Shown here: positions 9,281 to 62,661 of the stretch, piece after piece
Layout: every line of letters starts with the position of its first letter
Position numbering within the stretch: position 1 is the stretch's first letter
Source of the DNA: Escherichia phage EC.W2-6
Reading direction: 5' to 3' (one strand)
Sequence record: PP445229.1
DNA: 64,000 nt
Position numbers and translations under genes: made by a program
The notes under the pieces: model-generated
Seen by the model: only the letters and a program-made list of their open reading frames with translations
Database searches by the model: none
What the model was told of the DNA's origin: nothing

Positions 9281-9291
9281 TAATGTATACT
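9281..9291 (+). promoter_or_regulatory. candidate phage-specific promoter element (TAATGTATACT)
   Basis: Exact TAATGTATACT 35 nt upstream of ATG 9326, no sigma70 -35. Confidence 0.35.
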
Positions 9292-15845: not shown

Positions 15846-16089
15846 AGAACCTGTAGTACATAAAGATTCTATCAGAGATCAATATAATGAGATGTTAAAG
15901 AAACAAGCTGATTCTAATCTTCGTTATCAGAGGATAGTAGAACAATCTAACTTTAAAGGTTTACTTGAATGGTAACTTATATCCTTTACTTTTTAGCTTT
16001 CTTAGGAATAGTCTTTTTATCTATTCTTATTGAATTTGGTTTAAGTAAGTTAGTTAATTATTTAGGTAATAAGTAATTAATATTCTTTT

Positions 16090-16155
16090 AAATAGAGAAT
16101 CAAAGTCCCTAGGAGTCCCTACAACCTAAATCAAGGATTCCTTAATTCTCTATTT
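16090..16155. repeat. inverted repeat (11-bp arms) in AT-rich intergenic region
   Basis: AAATAGAGAAT at 16090-16100 and its complement ATTCTCTATTT at 16145-16155. Confidence 0.5.
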
Positions 16156-16323
16156 TTATCTCGCAGGTGGCTCCTGCCCTTCGGTACTTGCAAGGGATTC
16201 TGTGAATTGCCCAATATACAAGCCTGCAATAACTTTATCAGCTATACAATATATACATTACTAGTGTGATATATCTACTACCAAAGATACTTATATTATA
16301 TAGTACTCTTATCGGTATAAGCG

Positions 16324-16334
16324 TAATGTATACT
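16324..16334 (+). promoter_or_regulatory. candidate phage-specific promoter element (TAATGTATACT)
   Basis: Exact TAATGTATACT 58 nt upstream of SSB gene. Confidence 0.35.
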
Positions 16335-16391
16335 ATACATAACCGCTCAAAGAGAGCAACAATCTTTCAAATTAAATAAGGAAATTAAAAT

Positions 16392-17138
16392 ATGTCTATG
16401 ATTCCAACTATCGCAACCGCTTCCCGTAAATCCAACTACGATGTAATCCCTGATGGTGAGTACGAAGCACGTATCGTTCGTGTAGTAGGTTTGGGTGTTC
16501 ACAATCGTGACCCTTGGATTGACCCGAAGACCAAAGCAGTGACTCCTAAGAATCCGGCTTTCCGTATGGATTTAGCTTTCGAGCTGATTGGTGTTGATGC
16601 TACTGGTAAAGATTCCGATGGTAAGGCATTAGAACCACGTCCAGCTTGCCAGTTCAAGAGCTATGATGTAAACCCACGAGCTAAGAACTCTGGTATTCTT
16701 GATCTTTGCAAGATGATTGACCCAAGTATTCAAGCACTGAAAGGTGATCTATCTTGGTTCAAGGATGTTCTGTTAGGTCAGCCTGTTAACATTCTGGTTA
16801 ACTCTTATACTAACAAAGCTGGTGAAGTTAAAAACTCCATCAAGACCATTTCTCCAATCCCAACCAAATATCGTGCAGCAGTTGGTGAAGCTCGTAGTCC
16901 TCTGGTATTCTTCGAACCATATGCTGAAACCGACGAGAACGTAGCATCCTACCAACTGATGTTCCCGTTCCAGCGCAACCTGCTTACTCAAGCTAATGAC
17001 GCTAAGAACATGCCTCTGGCTGGTCGTGAAATTACTCGTGCTTCTGAAACAGAGCAGAAAGAAGCTACTCCTTCAATCCCTACGATTGATAAAGAGCCTG
17101 CTTCTACTTACGAAGACGACAACGATAGCCCATTCTAA
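16392..17138 (+). CDS. single-stranded DNA-binding protein (T7 gp2.5-like)
   Basis: Acidic C-terminal tail ending in Phe (YEDDNDSPF), strong codon bias, own upstream region and terminator. Confidence 0.65.
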   Translation: MSMIPTIATASRKSNYDVIPDGEYEARIVRVVGLGVHNRDPWIDPKTKAVTPKNPAFRMDLAFELIGVDATGKDSDGKALEPRPACQFKSYDVNPRAKNSGILDLCKMIDPSIQALKGDLSWFKDVLLGQPVNILVNSYTNKAGEVKNSIKTISPIPTKYRAAVGEARSPLVFFEPYAETDENVASYQLMFPFQRNLLTQANDAKNMPLAGREITRASETEQKEATPSIPTIDKEPASTYEDDNDSPF

Positions 17139-17149
17139 TAACTCTCCTT

Positions 17150-17173
17150 GTTATAGCTTAGCCACCTCCGGGT
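17150..17173 (+). terminator. intrinsic terminator after SSB gene
   Basis: AGCCACC-TCCG-GGTGGCT then TTTTTT. Confidence 0.7.
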
Positions 17174-17195
17174 GGCTTTTTTCGTTGGAGACAAC

Positions 17196-17546
17196 ATGCA
17201 AAACACATTAAGTGATAACTTAGGGTTTATCGTTTTCTCAGCTCTTGTATTCTTTGGTGGTATGAAGTTTAACGAATATCAAACAGACAGCAGTAATCTG
17301 GACAAAGAGAAGCACCAGCAAGAGTTAGAGATTGAAAGAAGTAGAGCAGCTGATGAAGTTGCTCAGAGAGTTCTTACCGGTTTATCTAACTGGAAGAAGA
17401 ACACAGAAACCGTTTATAAAGAGATGCATTATGAGAAAACTAAACCAGTTTTTTATGATGTCTGCGCTAGTGATGACTATGTCCGCATGTTCAATGATCG
17501 ACAGCAGCAGGCAATCAATGCCCTTACCAACAAACCTAAAAGCTGA
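17196..17546 (+). CDS. candidate i-spanin (Rz-like)
   Basis: N-terminal TM helix then coiled-coil; overlaps next ORF in another frame. Confidence 0.45.
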   Translation: MQNTLSDNLGFIVFSALVFFGGMKFNEYQTDSSNLDKEKHQQELEIERSRAADEVAQRVLTGLSNWKKNTETVYKEMHYEKTKPVFYDVCASDDYVRMFNDRQQQAINALTNKPKS

Positions 17547-17690
17547 ATGCAGGGTTGACTTACCTTTTTTAGAGAGTGCTCAAGGAAAAGCACTAGCCAC
17601 TACGTTGGAGTGGTATCAGGACCAGTACACAGAATGTGCTGCCAATCACAATGGATTGTTAGAAGCTCTGAAAGAGCGTGGAATAGAATA

Positions 17691-17691
<1 letters not shown>
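17431..17691 (+). CDS. candidate o-spanin lipoprotein (Rz1-like)
   Basis: MRK...ALVMTMSAC lipobox-like signal; begins in +1 frame inside the preceding ORF. Confidence 0.4.
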
Positions 17692-19177
<1,486 letters not shown>

Positions 19178-33093: not shown

Positions 33094-36000
33094 TTATCTC
33101 CGCCCGCCAACAGCAAACTCTATCGTTAAACCATTGATAGCAGCATTACTATTAACATCATTATCTATAACATTATAGAAAAGGTATGGATGGTTCAGTC
33201 TCACCGAGACATGCCTGTCAACACCGATCGTATATGTCTTAGATGTGTGTGGGTGTCCATATTCATTTGAGAATTGACTACCACCAGCTTCAAATATGTA
33301 AGTACCTGAACCAGTTGTCTGAGGTCGGAACCTGTTAATATGCTTCTGATTCCACTCATTCGTCACATTATCAAAATCTATACCAGTCCTCTCCAACCTC
33401 ATTTCCAGAGGCTTCTCTATAACAACATCATTTAGCCTGTCATAGAAGTAATCAAGAGCACCTACATCCACTTGATAGAATCCCTTCAAGAATGAACCTA
33501 CTATCGTAACCCTCTGTCTAAAGTTTGTTGCATCCTTTCTCCAAACGAGTTCTTTAATAGATGGGTCATCCCAAGTGATTTCTTGGAAGTCAGACCAGAT
33601 TGGACCTCTTTCTAAAACAGGAGGATCAACCAGACCAATACACTGAGCATATGGGATAGTACGGAATGACCAAGTATCAAACTCGTAGTTCCATACAGCA
33701 GCTTTAGTACAAGCGAAGCTTTCTTTTGGCTCTCCCGGACCTACGTACAGAACCCAAACTTCTTTCTTATCCTGATGCAAATGCACTCGAGTTGCTAGAG
33801 GGTTAACCAGACATACCTCGTTAATCAGCATATTCTTAACACGGTTAGATGCAATTGACTTCTTAGTTGCACCGTTGTGTAAGATTACATCGTTCTGAGT
33901 AACTACGAAGTGACTACCTTCTACTTCAACCACACACTCAGGAGCAAGGATACCAGAGTCGTTAAAGAGCTTCTTGAACATTAGAGGTTGGTACGTGTTA
34001 TTAGTCGGAGAACCAATATACGTTTCAAACTCTGTATAAACGAACAAGTAATCTTTAAGAGGTAGGATATCAATCAAGCTACCATTAGAATCTGCTAAGT
34101 CAATGTAACCAGCATACCCATTCTCTAGAGCCTGAGTCTGCCCTACGATGTTAGAAGCTAAGTCCGAAGACACAACTCGATCATAGGCAAAGTCATCCCA
34201 CAGTGTAGGAGCCTTGTTCTCATTGGCAAAGTTAGACCAACGAAGACGAAGCGGGTAGTTAGTGGTAACACCAGAAGCATTAGCCTCTCTCATATTCAGA
34301 GCAAAAAGACGGTTGTTAAAAGATCTTACTCTCTCACATTTCCAGTTAAACTTCTTGACTGAAGGGTTTCCATCACTATCCACCACTGTTTGCTCACCCC
34401 ACCCCGGAAGGTCTACAAAGTATTCTGATTCGAATTCTTTTACCTGAGGAGTTTCATAGTGAGTTGTAGCAACTGCACAGTTAGAGATAACAGCGTGATA
34501 CCAAGGGTAGTCATCAAAAGCATCGTAATCCTTCTGAGTCATCTGACTGACAGTACATGTTACGTTAATCTCTCCTTTACGAAGAGCAACCAGTTTGATA
34601 GATTTACCAGTGACTGAAGTTGTAGAAACATAACCAGTTTTATCAACAGACCACTGATAAGAGTACTCACCTTCTGGAGAAGCTGTGGCTGTAATGACAA
34701 CCTCTTCACCAACATCAAGAGAAGCGCTGACAATATCTAAGGTTACAGATGACAAAGGGGTTGCCAGTAAAGAAGCTCTTGCAAAACCTTCAATGTCATT
34801 CACGTTAGAGTAGTCATAGAAGTTATTACCTTCGTACATCCCTGACGTATCAATACCGGATGTAGGCTCAGCAAAATAAACCGTCTCTTCACTTTCAGGA
34901 GGAGTTACTACTTCTTCCTCTTGAGTTTCTACTGACTCTGACACAGGAGCAGCAAATGCCATAGAACTTGTTCTCATTGTTCTTCCAGCTAAATCTACAC
35001 GTACAGTACAGACAGCAACCCTGTTGCCTTCTTCAGTGGTAGCTGTAATCTCAGTAAAGCCAGCAAGTAAAGCGTTGATCGTCCCTTGTGTGCTAGTCCC
35101 TGATACTGTTGCAATATTTGGATTAGAAGAGGTCCAAGTAATATTTTGATTAGGGGCGTTAGCAGGAGAAAGGGTAGCAGTTAAGATATACTGAGAACCT
35201 CTACTCACAATAACATCTGACTGGCTTAAAGAGATACTATCAATCTGAGGGATGGAAACAACCTCACAAGAAGCAGTCTTAGTTCCGTTATCAGCAGTGA
35301 TTGTTACATTACCTTCTCCATTCGCTGTAATGACAGCAGTTAAAGAATTGGCGTTAGGGGTTACGGATACAATAGAAGCGTTATTGCTGGACCAAGTTAC
35401 AGGAGTCTTGCCAGTAACAGCCGTGAGAGTAGTAGTCCCTCCTTTACGAATTGTAACAGTGTCTTGACTCAAGAAGATGCCTGAATCACCGTCGATGATA
35501 TTAACAGCAATCTGAGCCACTACGGATTCGTTGGCAGTAGAGATAGTTACTACAAGATTACCTTCTTTCTCAAAAGATGTTAGAGTAGCAAGTTTAGAGT
35601 CACTAGGGTCTACCGTAATACTTCCATAGGATGAGTTACTAACCTCCCAAATAAGATCAGTATTGTTAGCATCAGCAGGGAGAAGAGAAACCTCTAGATT
35701 CTTGGTCTGATTGAAGTTCATTGAGATAGTTGATTCTTTAGGAACGATCTGAGAAACAACTGGATAAATCTTAATTGAGGCAGAAGCCTTCTTAGTGACT
35801 GTAGCAACCTTACGGCTAATATCAGTCAAGCTTTCATCTGTCAGTTTATATAACTTCTTATCCGTACCTACAACAAGAAAGCTATTACCTGCGCTATAAT
35901 AATCGAAAGGCATAGAAACGAAAGACAGAGGGGTTAAATCCTTATCTTCATCTACATAAGAAAGAGGGGCATTGCCCCCCGTCTTAAATACTCTCTGCTC

Positions 36001-36936: not shown

Positions 36937-37428
36937 TTAATATTTACCTTCGGTGTAAAGATTAGCTTCTGCAACTCTTCTATTATGAAGACCCTGACTT
37001 CTCTGCTTCTCTCCCTTGACCGTTATTTTATCCCAACGAAGAAATTCGGAATAAACATCCCCCTTAACATCTCCATTGATTACCTTCCTTAACTTAGATG
37101 TGCTCAAAGCCCCACTGCCAACATTGAAGTTGAAAGAAGTGAGTGCATCAAACTCATGAACTAGTAAAGGAACCTTTATGTTCTTCTGAGTAGCACGAAC
37201 AGAGTCTTGTGTGTCTCTATCTAGCAGAGCTAGACAATCCTCTATAGAATACGTTAATCCTTGTCTAACCGGATAACCATTCATATCGCGCGTAGCCCCT
37301 ACACATATAGTCCAGATACCTGCGGAATCTTTATAAGCCTTGGTTCTCATACCCTCATGCTTCATGATGAATTCCATTCCAGCTGGGCTTAAGTTTAATT
37401 GTACAGGTGGCAATGCGGCGTTATCCAT
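36937..37428 (-). CDS. endolysin, GH24 (T4 lysozyme-like)
   Basis: MKHEGMRTKAYKDSAGIWTICVGAT matches the lysozyme E...D...T catalytic block. Confidence 0.8.
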   Translation of the reverse strand: MDNAALPPVQLNLSPAGMEFIMKHEGMRTKAYKDSAGIWTICVGATRDMNGYPVRQGLTYSIEDCLALLDRDTQDSVRATQKNIKVPLLVHEFDALTSFNFNVGSGALSTSKLRKVINGDVKGDVYSEFLRWDKITVKGEKQRSQGLHNRRVAEANLYTEGKY

Positions 37429-37457: not shown

Positions 37458-37676
37458 TTAAGGTAGTATCTTTCTCAGAGCGTTAGATTCAGCATCAGGG
37501 CAAATAACAACTAAGTTATTTTGAATTGTTCTCTGCTTGCATTGAGAGCTAAGCTTCTCTACTGGAGCAGGGACAGTTACTAATGGATGAACTGCGCCTA
37601 CAGGAACTGCGGTGGATACCACAACACCTGCGCCTAAACATATTAAACCATATGCAGCTTGTTTCATCATTTTCAT
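37458..37676 (-). CDS. small membrane/secreted protein (possible holin or lysis accessory)
   Basis: N-terminal hydrophobic segment AAYGLICLGAGVVVSTAV; adjacent to endolysin. Confidence 0.4.
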   Translation of the reverse strand: MKMMKQAAYGLICLGAGVVVSTAVPVGAVHPLVTVPAPVEKLSSQCKQRTIQNNLVVICPDAESNALRKILP

Positions 37677-37769: not shown

Positions 37770-39938
37770 TCACTTCTCTGCTAACTTCGCTTCTAGAACT
37801 TCAATACGCTTCAGCAGATCTTGAACAACCTGCATGGTATCTAAAAGCATTGGAGTTGCATCCAACTCTTTCTGTTCCTGCTCTACCCCATCGTTGTCAT
37901 GGAATTTACGAGTTTTAACATAAAGAGGTTCAACTTTCTCTGCCTGCTGTGCAATGATACCACGACGAGTTCTTCCTTGATTATCATTGTTGTACACAAA
38001 CGATTTGAAATCCAAACCTTTTATCGCACGAATTGCTTCATCAGGAGAGATATCTTGGATGTTATGTTTCAACTTTTCATCAGATACAGGATTCATAGCA
38101 AGAGTATAAGTTCCGGTTGAACTTGGCTGCCAAGTGTAGTAGTAAATCTCGTTCCTGTTTGGTCGGAGAGTTAAACGACAACCATATTTGTTGTCTTCAT
38201 CTCCCGAAACATGCCAACAGGAATCAGCAAAAGATCCAGCATCATTGTGAATCATCCCTACATGGGTAGTAGTTTTGTATCCACCTTGGGATGCTTGGGA
38301 AGCACTCAGTATAGAGTTAAAAGAGTAGTTAGCACCAACCCCTTGGTTGTCTATAGAAAACGTCCCTCTGCGACTTCCTGTTTCACTCCAAGACATCAAT
38401 GTTCTAGACCGAGCAACATATCTATCAGAGTTCAGGGTTCCAGAATCGTCAAAAGCTAATTGCTTGGTAACTCCTTTGGTTTTATTATAAACATTGATAA
38501 TCCCATAATAAGCTCCGTCGATATAAGCATCAGTTTGGAGCGTAGTAGAGGCTTCTACTTCTGAACCTATTTTATATTCAGAAACAACTGAACCGCTAGT
38601 TACCCTAGTTCCACCAGCAGGACGGTTTGCATCACTGTTAATAACTGACCAAGAGGTGTTAGCAGCAGTAAAACCTCCATGAGCACGAATAGTCCAAACA
38701 CCTACAAAGTTACGGGTCAGAATCTCCTCAGTGGAGCGACCATAAATAGGACTGGAACGCGATGCGTCAAAGTTTGTGGATATGTATTTACCTCCAGCCC
38801 CCACTGGAGCCACATCGTCTGTAGAGGTGATTGATTGAATTGCCCCGTTAGTCGCCACCTGCCCCGGAGCGGAGGCTAGTGTTACCATTGTGTGAGGGGA
38901 CGCATATGTGATATTCGGTGCAGCAGAATCAAACACTTGGCCATTTGCAGCAGAATTACCACCATCACCACGGCCATATAAAGCTCTCAGTGACCCCTCT
39001 TGGATACCATTTCGGTCAGGAACACGGAAAGTTGTTGTACCATTTCCGGTAGAATACCTACCCCTCTGATAGATATTAGACAACCAAAGAGAGTCTTCAA
39101 TTGGGGATAGCAGTTGTGCATAAGCCCATAAATCTGGGTAGTCAGCACGATTCAAAAGCTGCCCATCCGACACAACCTCAAAAGCTGGGATGAAAGCTCG
39201 ACTGTCACGTAAATGGAAATCACCAATACCAAAGTTAGAGATACCGCTCATCGTAGGACCACCAGAGCCACCACCACTGTTTCGAAGCTGTCTCAAAGTA
39301 ACCGCATCATAATCACCAACTGCATCAGGGACAGTTACTGGTTGAGTGAAAGTAACTTTCTGTGTGAGCTGTTTGATATCAGAGTTAATCCCTGTACGAG
39401 TAACACCTACCGTACGACCTTTAGAGTCTTTAACATAAGAACCAATTGCAGCAAAAGGCAAATCCTCAATCTCAGGACGGTAACGTTTAGAATAAACTGG
39501 ATACTTAGTTTCTACCCCAGAGTCATTCTGGTCAACAACCTGAAGACGACCAGCAGAATGAATCTCTACACCTTGAACTGAAGAGGCATAACTACCAATC
39601 TTGATTGAGTTATCAGTAGTAACTTTCATCATATCAACTGATTCTACACCATTAGCTCCAGTAGAACGGAATGGGGTATCATTAACAACCCAAGGGTCTT
39701 CTCGGAACAGCGCACCAGACATAATAGGTTGAATCGAATCCAGCACAAAATCTTTAGATGCACCCTCTGTTTTAGTTTGATAGGTAGCAGCTGCGTCGGT
39801 TTTCTGTAAATATTTTCCGGTGAGGTTAATAGCTCCAGTCTGTCCATCTACAGTAGAAACCCCAACAACAGCCGCGTCTCTGGTTACAACCACATGAGGC
39901 ATCATTATACCAGATTTGGGCATTAATTCTCTAGACAT
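37770..39938 (-). CDS. tail fibre/tailspike with C-terminal S74 intramolecular chaperone domain
   Basis: C-terminal SDEKLKHNIQDI...GLDFKSFVY matches the self-cleaving chaperone (S74) motif. Confidence 0.8.
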   Translation of the reverse strand: MSRELMPKSGIMMPHVVVTRDAAVVGVSTVDGQTGAINLTGKYLQKTDAAATYQTKTEGASKDFVLDSIQPIMSGALFREDPWVVNDTPFRSTGANGVESVDMMKVTTDNSIKIGSYASSVQGVEIHSAGRLQVVDQNDSGVETKYPVYSKRYRPEIEDLPFAAIGSYVKDSKGRTVGVTRTGINSDIKQLTQKVTFTQPVTVPDAVGDYDAVTLRQLRNSGGGSGGPTMSGISNFGIGDFHLRDSRAFIPAFEVVSDGQLLNRADYPDLWAYAQLLSPIEDSLWLSNIYQRGRYSTGNGTTTFRVPDRNGIQEGSLRALYGRGDGGNSAANGQVFDSAAPNITYASPHTMVTLASAPGQVATNGAIQSITSTDDVAPVGAGGKYISTNFDASRSSPIYGRSTEEILTRNFVGVWTIRAHGGFTAANTSWSVINSDANRPAGGTRVTSGSVVSEYKIGSEVEASTTLQTDAYIDGAYYGIINVYNKTKGVTKQLAFDDSGTLNSDRYVARSRTLMSWSETGSRRGTFSIDNQGVGANYSFNSILSASQASQGGYKTTTHVGMIHNDAGSFADSCWHVSGDEDNKYGCRLTLRPNRNEIYYYTWQPSSTGTYTLAMNPVSDEKLKHNIQDISPDEAIRAIKGLDFKSFVYNNDNQGRTRRGIIAQQAEKVEPLYVKTRKFHDNDGVEQEQKELDATPMLLDTMQVVQDLLKRIEVLEAKLAEK

Positions 39939-62585: not shown

Positions 62586-62661
62586 GCGCTCTTAGCTCAA
62601 TGGATAGAGCAGTAGCCTTCTAAGCTATTGGTTACAGGTTCGAGTCCTGTAGGGCGCACCA
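62586..62661 (+). tRNA. tRNA-Arg (anticodon UCU), CCA encoded
   Basis: Cloverleaf by hand: 7-bp acceptor GCGCTCT/AGGGCGC, D-arm GCTC/GAGC, anticodon stem GTAGC/GCTAT with loop CTTCTAA, T-arm ACAGG-TTCGAGT-CCTGT, then ACCA. Confidence 0.85.

What the first reader, a model, noticed from the sequence alone, without database searches (positions are those of the whole stretch)
17196..17691. Candidate spanin pair in overlapping frames, 19 kb from the endolysin
An ORF with an N-terminal TM helix plus coiled-coil overlaps, in another frame, a small ORF with a lipoprotein-like signal (MRK...TMSAC) and three periplasmic Cys. This is the classic i-spanin/o-spanin architecture. It sits in the replication block on the opposite strand from the GH24 endolysin (36937).
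Basis: partly seen in the sequence, partly recalled or inferred. Interest (0 to 1): 0.4.

Follow-up and report, generated by a model that had tools for sequence, protein, structure and literature searches.

The report
Known overlapped spanin pair of phiEco32-like phage
The two overlapping genes are a real but already catalogued phage "spanin" pair, proteins that break the bacterial outer membrane at the end of infection, so the finding is correct and ordinary.

Summary
The window is a phiEco32-like Kuravirus genome, 100% identical over the tested 2.5 kb to Escherichia phage EC.W8-1. ORF 17196-17546 (+, 116 aa) has an N-terminal hydrophobic anchor and matches PHROG 1152 "Rz-like spanin" (E 5.6e-37). 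ORF 17431-17691 (+1 frame, 86 aa, 116-nt overlap) begins with a lipoprotein signal, MRKLNQFFMMSALVMTMSA|C, with Ser at +2. Both frames are conserved. Substitutions fall on third codon positions of the i-frame up to 17546 and of the o-frame after it. The lipobox Cys is kept in seven phage genera. In relatives where a homing endonuclease split the overlap, the o-spanin acquired a new signal peptide and lipobox. In Sashavirus, Gorganvirus and a metagenomic relative, the homologous pair follows the endolysin gene directly. Kongari et al. 2018 list phiEco32 as an overlapped two-component spanin with the same gene lengths and the same 116-nt overlap. Two details need correcting. A coiled coil is not demonstrated, and only two of the three o-spanin Cys are free in the periplasm. 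Distance from the holin/endolysin has a precedent in T4. No member of this family has been tested experimentally in the papers I read.

The parts
17196..17546 (+). i-spanin gene (116 aa), homologue of phiEco32 gp39. It has an N-terminal membrane anchor and a mostly helical periplasmic domain with an invariant Cys90.
   Evidence: ORF and translation. PHROG 1152 Rz-like spanin, E 5.6e-37. Invariant C90 and other columns in 20 homologues. Kongari 2018 JH2 i-spanin family.
17220..17264 (+). Hydrophobic transmembrane segment of the i-spanin (residues 9-23, LGFIVFSALVFFGGM).
   Evidence: Kyte-Doolittle scan. AlphaFold2 helix 3-78 at low confidence. A hydrophobic N-terminus is present in all relatives.
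17431..17691 (+). o-spanin gene (86 aa precursor, 67 aa mature), in the +1 frame, overlapping the i-spanin gene by 116 nt. It is the homologue of phiEco32 gp38 with the start extended upstream.
   Evidence: PHROG 2425, E 1e-25. Kongari 2018 supplement: phiEco32 o-spanin 86 aa, mature 67 aa, overlap 116. Third-position substitution pattern in 17547-17691.
17431..17490 (+). Lipoprotein signal peptide MRKLNQFFMMSALVMTMSA|C. The lipobox M-S-A-C lies at 17479-17490, and Ser at +2 predicts outer-membrane sorting.
   Evidence: Pattern match. A lipobox Cys is present in the 10 relatives aligned, which span 7 genera, and in the 3 further loci L014-L016 read. A new signal peptide plus lipobox appears where the overlap was destroyed, in SU7 and L014.
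17419..17423 (+). Shine-Dalgarno-like AAGAG, 7 nt upstream of the o-spanin ATG.
   Evidence: Sequence. The same element is marked for the NJ01 o-spanin in the Kongari 2018 supplement.
17187..17190 (+). Shine-Dalgarno GGAG, 5 nt upstream of the i-spanin ATG.
   Evidence: Sequence.
17160..17187 (+). Intrinsic-terminator-like hairpin plus T run between the gene 40 homologue and the i-spanin gene. If it functions, it could attenuate transcription entering the spanin genes.
   Evidence: Consensus scan only; function not shown.
16324..16332 (+). Exact match to the phage sigma factor (gp36) promoter consensus TAATGTATA, upstream of the gene 40 homologue. It is the nearest candidate promoter for the spanin genes.
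   Evidence: Pattern search. Consensus taken from PMC8948821. Its use for the spanin genes is inferred.
37458..37676 (-). Holin-family gene (72 aa, one hydrophobic segment), a functional partner in lysis.
   Evidence: PHROG 11161 holin, E 2.8e-50. Translation.
36937..37428 (-). Endolysin of the T4-lysozyme/GH24 type (163 aa), a functional partner in lysis.
   Evidence: PF00959, E 3.7e-32. PHROG 7 endolysin.

Best explanation
These are the two genes of an overlapped two-component spanin, the homologues of phiEco32 gp39 and an upstream-extended gp38.

**Steps inferred from the sequence**
- The i-spanin inserts into the inner membrane through its N-terminal hydrophobic segment. Its roughly 90-residue, mostly helical domain lies in the periplasm.
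- The o-spanin is translated from its own ATG (17431) in the +1 frame.
- It is exported, lipid-modified on Cys20 and cleaved by signal peptidase II.
- Because Ser, not Asp, follows the Cys, the Lol system sorts it to the outer membrane.

**Steps inferred from what is established for lambda Rz/Rz1 and T4 PseT.3/PseT.2**
- The two proteins bind through their C-terminal parts and bridge the periplasm.
- Disulfide bonds probably hold them as covalent multimers (i-spanin C90; o-spanin C40 and C69).
- The complexes are held in check by the peptidoglycan mesh.
- When the holin (37458-37676) releases the endolysin (36937-37428) and the wall is degraded, the complexes fuse or disrupt the outer membrane and release the progeny.

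**Timing.** The spanin genes lie in the middle-gene cluster, next to the phage sigma factor gene. The complexes are harmless until the wall is gone, so placement far from the holin and endolysin, and earlier transcription, would be tolerated.
For: **Shown here**
- ORFs, membrane anchor, lipobox and Ser at +2.
- Full-length match to PHROG 1152 'Rz-like spanin', E 5.6e-37, and to PHROG 2425, E 1e-25.
- The architecture (+1 frame, overlap of 107-164 nt) and the lipobox Cys are conserved in Kuravirus, Nieuwekanaalvirus, Gorganvirus, Sashavirus, Kolesnikvirus and Mooglevirus.
- 304 of 305 tblastn hits cover at least 80% of the 86-aa protein.
- Substitutions fall on i-frame position 3 in 17196-17430 (29 of 37). 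They fall on o-frame position 3 in 17547-17691 (31 of 45).
- Natural experiment: in SU7 and contig L014 an HNH-AP2 endonuclease gene separates the two genes. Both stay intact, and the o-spanin has a different signal peptide that again ends in a lipobox.
- Context: homologues follow the endolysin gene directly in Sasha, PM-CJR and L016, with a small membrane protein gene alongside it in Sasha.
- C90 of the i-spanin and C69 of the o-spanin are invariant.

**From the literature**
- phiEco32 is listed as an overlapped spanin pair of 116 aa and 86 aa with a 116-nt overlap (PMC6139136 text and supplements).
- T4 spanin genes are also far from its holin and endolysin, and they complement lambda Rz/Rz1.
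- The gp36 sigma factor gene, two genes downstream of the spanin pair, is a middle gene.
Against: - I found no experimental test of this family. There is no complementation, no lipid labelling and no knockout, so function rests on homology, anatomy and context.
- There is no match to the Pfam families of lambda Rz or Rz1, to any NCBIfam model or to any solved structure.
- The N-terminus of the i-spanin has no positive charge. It carries a net -1, which the Kongari supplement flags for the near-identical NJ01 protein. The N-in/C-out topology is therefore not predicted by the positive-inside rule.
- A coiled coil is not predicted.
- The AlphaFold2 models are of low confidence (pLDDT 61 and 53).
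- In the overlap itself most substitutions are non-synonymous in the o-frame, although conservative. Purifying selection on the signal peptide is therefore shown by its properties, not by its sequence.
- A terminator-like hairpin lies just upstream. The temporal class of genes 38 and 39 specifically was not read from primary data.
Confidence: 0.9

Rival explanations
1. The second gene is only the short 57-aa ORF starting at Met30 (17518), as most GenBank records and gene callers annotate it. On this reading it is a small soluble cytoplasmic protein. The upstream lipoprotein-like signal is then an untranslated accident of the i-spanin reading frame.
For: - The annotated CDS is 17518-17691 in EC.W8-1, phiEco32, ShigP1, EK5 and SU10.
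- 4 of the 6 protein clusters found are the 57-aa form.
- Substitutions in the overlap follow the i-frame.
- The lipobox pattern alone occurs by chance about once per 64 kb.
Against: - The ATG, the basic n-region, the hydrophobic core and the lipobox Cys are present in every relative examined, down to 28-37% identity, although the underlying DNA differs.
- When the overlap is destroyed by an HNH insertion, a new signal peptide with a lipobox replaces the old one.
- There is no Shine-Dalgarno sequence before 17518, whereas AAGAG precedes 17431.
- Met30 is absent in distant homologues.
Confidence: 0.03
2. The pair is an envelope protein pair with a task other than lysis. One example would be superinfection exclusion or receptor masking by an outer-membrane lipoprotein, as with T5 Llp. 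That would explain its place among middle genes, away from the holin and endolysin.
For: - The pair lies 19 kb from the lysis genes, on the other strand, next to the sigma factor, macro-domain and nucleotide-metabolism genes.
- The family has not been tested experimentally.
- The o-spanin PHROG is labelled 'unknown function'.
Against: - The homologous pairs lie inside canonical lysis cassettes in Sasha, PM-CJR and L016.
- The i-spanin matches the Rz-like spanin PHROG.
- No other spanin candidate lies next to the holin and endolysin in this window.
- An unlinked spanin location has a precedent in T4.
- There is no PADLOC match.
Confidence: 0.05
3. The overlap is a chance open frame with no function, so the feature is not real.
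For: Short alternative-frame ORFs are common, and the lipobox regular expression is not significant on its own.
Against: Frame-specific third-position variation in 17547-17691. Conservation across seven genera. A full-length PHROG match.
Confidence: 0.01

Closest known systems
phiEco32 gp39/gp38 spanin pair, as catalogued by Kongari et al. 2018 (i-spanin family 'JH2'; o-spanin group NJ01/ECBP2/KBNP1711/PhiEco32)
   Same: - The same genes: the 2.5-kb region is 98% identical in DNA.
- The same lengths (116 aa and 86 aa) and the same 116-nt overlap.
- The same frame relation and the same position beside the macro-domain and sigma factor genes.
- The o-spanin of family member NJ01 carries the same signal-peptide end, TMSA|C.
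   Different: - A few substitutions only: about 93% amino-acid identity in the o-spanin, for example M9I and T16S.
- The GenBank phiEco32 record still annotates gp38 from the internal Met (57 aa).
Felix O1-like (Ounavirinae), Sashavirus and Gorganvirus overlapped spanins
   Same: - i-spanins of Felix O1-like phages are in the same Kongari family (JH2).
- The o-spanins are detectably homologous (28-37% identity by tblastn).
- They share the +1 overlapped architecture, the conserved i-spanin Cys and the conserved C-terminal o-spanin Cys.
   Different: - In Sasha and PM-CJR the pair lies in a canonical lysis cassette. Here it is 19 kb from the holin and endolysin.
- C40 of the o-spanin is missing in the Ounavirinae members.
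Lambda Rz/Rz1
   Same: The same functional class and inferred mechanism: an inner-membrane anchored helical protein plus an outer-membrane lipoprotein encoded in the +1 frame, with periplasmic Cys residues.
   Different: - No detectable sequence homology; there are no Pfam Rz or Rz1 hits.
- The genes are overlapped, not embedded.
- The mature o-spanin is 67 aa with predicted helices and only 3 Pro. Rz1 is 40 aa, proline-rich and unstructured.
- No coiled coil is predicted.
- The pair is not part of the lysis cassette.
T4 PseT.3/PseT.2
   Same: - The spanin genes are unlinked to the holin and endolysin genes.
- The o-spanin has two periplasmic Cys and a predicted C-terminal helix.
- The proteins are of similar size, 117 aa and 83 aa.
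   Different: - T4 has a separated architecture.
- The T4 i-spanin has no Cys.
- I did not test for sequence homology.
- T4 function was shown by complementation. Here it has not been.
T5 versus Shivani spanins (overlapped to separated transition by a homing endonuclease, Kongari 2018)
   Same: Relatives of this locus (SU7, contig L014) show the same event. An HNH endonuclease gene sits between the i- and o-spanin genes, with a replaced i-spanin tail and a new o-spanin signal peptide.
   Different: It is a different spanin family and phage group. The window itself carries the uninterrupted overlapped form.

Membership tests
Two-component spanin (functional class; criteria of Summer 2007 / Kongari 2018) | The i-spanin is a small protein with a single N-terminal transmembrane domain and a periplasmic C-terminal domain. 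| tested here: met
   A hydrophobic segment spans residues 9-23, followed by 88-90 polar residues. The N-in/C-out topology itself is not predicted by flanking charge and was not testable.
Two-component spanin (functional class; criteria of Summer 2007 / Kongari 2018) | The o-spanin is a small protein with a signal peptidase II signal and a lipobox Cys. | tested here: met
   MRKLNQFFMMSALVMTMSA|C matches the lipobox pattern. It is conserved in all relatives examined. Actual lipid modification is not testable here.
Two-component spanin (functional class; criteria of Summer 2007 / Kongari 2018) | Outer-membrane sorting: no Asp at position +2 of the mature lipoprotein. | tested here: met
   Ser at +2. 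Ser or Thr at +2 in all homologues.
Two-component spanin (functional class; criteria of Summer 2007 / Kongari 2018) | The o-spanin gene is embedded in, overlaps or directly follows the i-spanin gene. | tested here: met
   A 116-nt overlap in the +1 frame. The same frame relation holds in six genera.
Two-component spanin (functional class; criteria of Summer 2007 / Kongari 2018) | Periplasmic Cys residues available for intermolecular disulfide bonds (present in 507 of 528 pairs). | tested here: met
   i-spanin C90; o-spanin C40 and C69. C90 and C69 are invariant. Disulfide formation was not testable.
Two-component spanin (functional class; criteria of Summer 2007 / Kongari 2018) | Required for outer-membrane disruption; complements lambda Rz/Rz1 amber mutants. 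| not testable with these tools
   No experiment on this family appears in the papers I read.
Two-component spanin (functional class; criteria of Summer 2007 / Kongari 2018) | Location in the lysis cassette with the holin and endolysin (usual, but not defining). | tested here: not met
   The pair is 19.2 kb from the endolysin and on the opposite strand. T4 is an accepted exception. Homologues in Sasha, PM-CJR and L016 are in cassettes.
PHROG 1152 Rz-like spanin / Kongari 'JH2' i-spanin family | Significant full-length sequence match. | tested here: met
   E 5.6e-37, residues 3-116 against profile positions 6-127 of 127. phiEco32 is listed in the JH2 family.
PHROG 2425 / Kongari o-spanin group (NJ01, ECBP2, KBNP1711, PhiEco32) | Significant full-length sequence match. 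| tested here: met
   E 1e-25, residues 6-84 against profile positions 3-82 of 86. About 93% identical to the phiEco32 o-spanin.
Lambda Rz (Pfam Phage_lysis) and Rz1 (Pfam Rz1 lipoprotein) families | Match to the Pfam model above the gathering score. | tested here: not met
   No spanin family appears among the Pfam hits even at E up to 1. The pair is an analogue, not a detectable homologue.
i-spanin with two coiled-coil domains (lambda Rz type) | A predicted coiled coil in the periplasmic domain. | tested here: inconclusive
   Pepcoil found 0 segments for phiEco32. The heptad test gave p about 0.05 for residues 50-77. AlphaFold2 predicted helices 3-78 and 93-111 at pLDDT 61.

The most novel reading that the evidence does not exclude
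The spanin pair lies in the middle-gene cluster, downstream of a gp36-type promoter and a terminator-like hairpin, rather than with the late holin and endolysin genes. It might therefore be made well before lysis and serve a second purpose in the envelope. Examples would be blocking superinfection or altering the outer membrane during infection, in addition to or instead of the final lysis step. My evidence does not exclude this, because neither the timing nor the function of these two genes has been measured.
Probability: 0.04. Interest if true: 0.45.

Novelty: already known. Interest (0 to 1): 0.1.

Why it matters
It matters little for discovery, because the pair is already in the published spanin census and is annotated in several GenBank records.

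It has practical value for annotation. Most database entries for this phage group, including the record identical to this window, either call both genes hypothetical or start the o-spanin at an internal Met. That start removes the signal peptide and lipobox that define the protein.

The family, which is shared with Felix O1-like phages, also lacks any experimental test. These phages are candidates for therapy, so a simple complementation assay would close that gap.

Tried and rejected
- **Profile libraries.** Pfam, NCBIfam and PADLOC scans of both proteins gave nothing meaningful. The weak NCBIfam hits, BsmA and Mfa1, touch only the lipoprotein signal.
- **Solved structures.** Profile searches of PDB sequences found no relative.
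- **AlphaFold2.** Both proteins gave low-confidence models (pLDDT 61 and 53). I did not run fold searches, because such models give meaningless matches.
- **Lipobox pattern scan of the whole window.** The pattern alone is not significant: 2 hits against about 0.9 in shuffles. The second hit, 38211-38459 (+), is antisense to a tail fibre gene, lacks a hydrophobic core, and was dismissed.
- **Synonymous and non-synonymous counts inside the 116-nt overlap.** These do not favour the o-frame. I relied instead on conservation of the signal's properties and on the HNH natural experiment.
- **Large protein database search with the o-spanin.** It returned mostly the truncated 57-aa gene calls, so the alignment was shallow.
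- **HNH element in SU10.** I suspected it split the spanin pair, but it lies upstream of the i-spanin gene.
- **Promoter scan.** The sigma-70 scan found nothing convincing in front of the spanin genes.
- **Endolysin type.** A 2026 paper describes a signal-bearing (SAR) endolysin in a related phage. The N-terminus of this window's endolysin is not hydrophobic, so I did not adopt that reading.

Full report
**What the window is.** A megablast of 16300-18800 found 98 phage records. Two were 100% identical (Escherichia phages EC.W14-3 and EC.W8-1) and phiEco32 was 98% identical. The window's coordinates correspond to PQ030848.1 positions 3001-67000. That record belongs to the genus Kuravirus, subfamily Gordonclarkvirinae.

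The plus strand up to about 22 kb carries replication, nucleotide-metabolism and transcription genes. The minus strand from about 22 kb carries structural genes, within which a holin-family gene and an endolysin are embedded.

- ORF 1 runs from ATG 17196 to 17546 and encodes 116 aa.
  - GGAG lies 5 nt upstream of its ATG.
  - Its hydrophobic segment is LGFIVFSALVFFGGM (residues 9-23).
  - The rest of the protein is polar and charged, with a single Cys at position 90.
- ORF 2 runs from ATG 17431 to 17691 and encodes 86 aa.
  - It is in the +1 frame and shares 116 nt with ORF 1.
  - AAGAG lies 7 nt upstream of its ATG.
  - It begins MRKLNQFFMMSALVMTMSA|CSM, which matches a PROSITE-like lipobox pattern, and Ser follows the Cys.

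- The small protein has three Cys in all (20, 40, 69). Cys20 is the one that would be lipid-modified, so two remain free in the periplasm.
- The coiled coil is not demonstrated.
  - The published census found no Pepcoil segment in the phiEco32 i-spanin.
  - My crude heptad test was marginal, p about 0.05 for residues 50-77.
  - AlphaFold2 predicted long helices (3-78 and 93-111) only at low confidence, mean pLDDT 61.

- The endolysin at 36937-37428 (minus strand) matches Pfam Phage_lysozyme, E 3.7e-32.
- The gene next to it, 37458-37676, matches a holin PHROG, E 2.8e-50.
- The endolysin lies 19.2 kb from the pair.

**Is it more than chance?** The lipobox pattern alone is not. A six-frame scan gave 2 matches in the window, against 0.9 on average in shuffled sequence. 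The weight comes from four other lines of evidence.

1. *Family matches.* ORF 1 matches PHROG 1152 'Rz-like spanin' over its full length (E 5.6e-37). ORF 2 matches PHROG 2425 over its full length (E 1e-25).
2. *Codon-position pattern.* I compared six Kuravirus and Nieuwekanaalvirus genomes.
   - In 17196-17430, 29 of 37 variable sites fall on third positions of the ORF 1 frame.
   - In 17547-17691, 31 of 45 fall on third positions of the ORF 2 frame.
   - The signature of translation therefore changes frame at the ORF 1 stop.
3. *Conservation of the overlap's properties.* Inside the overlap, substitutions follow the ORF 1 frame and are mostly non-synonymous in ORF 2. They are nonetheless conservative, for example M to I and T to S. 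The properties of the signal are kept everywhere I looked.
   - tblastn aligned at least 80% of the 86 aa in 304 of 305 phage records.
   - The basic N-terminus, hydrophobic core and lipobox Cys are present in Kuravirus, Nieuwekanaalvirus, Suseptimavirus, Gorganvirus, Sashavirus, Kolesnikvirus and Mooglevirus.
   - In the six of those genera where the two genes overlap, the o-gene is always in the +1 frame relative to an i-spanin homologue.
4. *A natural experiment.*
   - In phage SU7 and in a metagenomic Kuravirus contig (L014), an HNH-AP2 homing endonuclease gene sits between the two genes.
   - The i-spanin keeps its body but has a new C-terminal tail.
   - The o-spanin has a different signal peptide that again ends in a lipobox: ...LASSLMAC in SU7 and ...LLAFSLSAC in L014.
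   - L014 still carries a decayed relic of the old start, MRKLNQFFIMSALAMTMSLY... followed by a stop.
   - Selection therefore maintains a lipoprotein signal on this protein, whatever the DNA encoding it.

**What it is.** Homologous pairs lie in ordinary lysis cassettes.

| Phage or contig | Gene order |
|---|---|
| Salmonella phage Sasha | endolysin, two-TMD membrane protein, Rz-like spanin, o-spanin (annotated with SPII cleavage at 19-20) |
| Proteus phage PM-CJR | peptidoglycan hydrolase, then the pair |
| Contig L016 | small ORF, Phage_lysozyme, then the pair |

The spanin census of Kongari et al. 2018 (PMC6139136) already lists phiEco32 among overlapped two-component spanins.

- Its i-spanin is placed in the 'JH2' family together with Felix O1-like phages.
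- Its o-spanin is placed in a group of four: NJ01, ECBP2, KBNP1711 and PhiEco32.
- The supplement gives phiEco32 i-spanin 35417-35768 and o-spanin 35272-35533.
- It also gives a 116-nt overlap, lengths of 116 aa and 86 aa, and a mature o-spanin of 67 aa. These are the same figures as here.
- For the near-identical NJ01 o-spanin, the supplement gives the signal-peptide end as TMSA|C.
- Several recent GenBank records (ShigP1, EK5, VTCCBPA_211, PE006) and two papers on Kuravirus phages also name the genes as spanins.

**How it most likely works.** From the sequence I infer the following.

- The i-spanin is anchored in the inner membrane.
- The o-spanin is exported, lipid-modified at Cys20 and cleaved. 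Because of Ser at +2, it is sorted to the outer membrane.

From what is established for lambda Rz/Rz1 and T4 PseT.3/PseT.2 (summarised in PMC6139136), I infer the following.

- The two proteins join through their C-terminal parts across the periplasm.
- They are stabilised by disulfide bonds. C90 in the i-spanin and C69 in the o-spanin are invariant; C40 is present in most homologues.
- They act only after the endolysin has removed the peptidoglycan, and then disrupt the outer membrane.

The most conserved stretches are EKTKPVFYNVCASDDY in the i-spanin and LEWYQDQYTECAANHNGL in the o-spanin. They are my candidates for the contact surface, which is inference only.

The o-spanin differs from lambda Rz1. 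It is longer, has three prolines rather than ten, and is predicted, at low confidence, to have a disordered tether (residues 21-43) followed by helices.

**The unusual location.**

- The pair lies in the cluster that also holds the phage sigma factor gene, a middle gene of phiEco32.
- An exact copy of the gp36 promoter consensus TAATGTATA lies at 16324-16332, upstream of the preceding gene.
- A terminator-like hairpin lies at 17160-17177, between that gene and the i-spanin.
- I did not find primary data on the timing of genes 38 and 39 themselves.
- Separation from the holin and endolysin is not a contradiction. T4's spanin genes are likewise unlinked and are functional. Spanin complexes are inert while the wall is intact.

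**Rivals.**

- *The 57-aa annotation starting at 17518.* This is contradicted by the conservation of the upstream signal, by the replacement signal in SU7 and L014, and by the absence of a ribosome-binding site at 17518.
- *A non-lytic envelope role such as superinfection exclusion.* This cannot be excluded without experiments. It is made unlikely by the cassette context of homologues and by the absence of any other spanin candidate near the holin and endolysin.
- *A chance ORF.* This is excluded by the frame-specific substitution pattern.

**Comparison and membership.**

- The pair meets every sequence-testable criterion of a two-component spanin.
- It belongs to the phiEco32/Felix O1 i-spanin family and to the phiEco32-type o-spanin family.
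- It is not a detectable homologue of lambda Rz or Rz1; there are no Pfam hits.
- It has no solved relative.
- Function has not been tested for any member in the papers I could read.

**Verdict.** Interest is low. The useful by-products are an annotation correction for the o-spanin start and a further example of a homing endonuclease converting an overlapped spanin pair into a separated one. That kind of event was already described for T5 and Shivani.

Noticed in passing
window 17518-17691; also L001, L002, L003, L004, L005, L006, L013: Most GenBank records of this phage group start the o-spanin at an internal Met (57 aa), and so do most metagenome gene calls. KBNP1711 and EP335 start it later still (41 aa). 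These starts remove the signal peptide and lipobox. The record identical to the window calls both genes hypothetical.
   Followed up: yes
L012 1531-1917 (SU7, minus strand) and L014 1869-2327: An HNH-AP2 homing endonuclease gene is inserted between the i- and o-spanin genes, turning the overlapped pair into a separated one. The i-spanin has a new tail and the o-spanin a new signal peptide with a lipobox. L014 retains a decayed relic of the old o-spanin start in the +1 frame. At least two different i-spanin tail variants exist among relatives.
   Followed up: partly
L013 1049-1462 (SU10): A different HNH endonuclease gene lies between the gene 40 homologue and the i-spanin gene in SU10, CHD5UKE1 and others. 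It takes the place occupied in this window by the short spacer that contains the terminator-like hairpin.
   Followed up: no
window 15976-16391: A 416-nt non-coding gap holds exact copies of the phage sigma factor promoter consensus TAATGTATA on both strands: 16324-16332 (+) and 16252-16260 (-). The minus-strand copy would drive transcription antisense to the upstream plus-strand genes. Other exact copies lie at 9281 (+), 26503 (-) and 43333 (-).
   Followed up: no
window 37458-37676 (-) and 36937-37428 (-): The holin-family protein (72 aa) has only one hydrophobic segment. The endolysin N-terminus is not hydrophobic, so a signal-anchor-release type endolysin, as claimed for a related phage in a 2026 paper, is not evident here. 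The lysis genes are embedded between tail fibre and baseplate genes.
   Followed up: partly
window 17689-17693: The o-spanin stop codon TAA shares its last base with the ATG of the downstream macro-domain (Appr-1-p processing) gene, 17691-18131. This suggests translational coupling of a lysis gene to an ADP-ribose-related enzyme gene.
   Followed up: no
window 62586-62661 (+): A single tRNA-Arg (anticodon TCT) gene, found by both ARAGORN and Rfam.
   Followed up: no
window 17196-17222: The i-spanin N-terminus (MQNTLSDN) has no positive charge and a net charge of -1, which is unusual for an N-in membrane anchor. The Kongari supplement flags the same for NJ01. More distant homologues have a Lys or Arg there.
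   Followed up: partly
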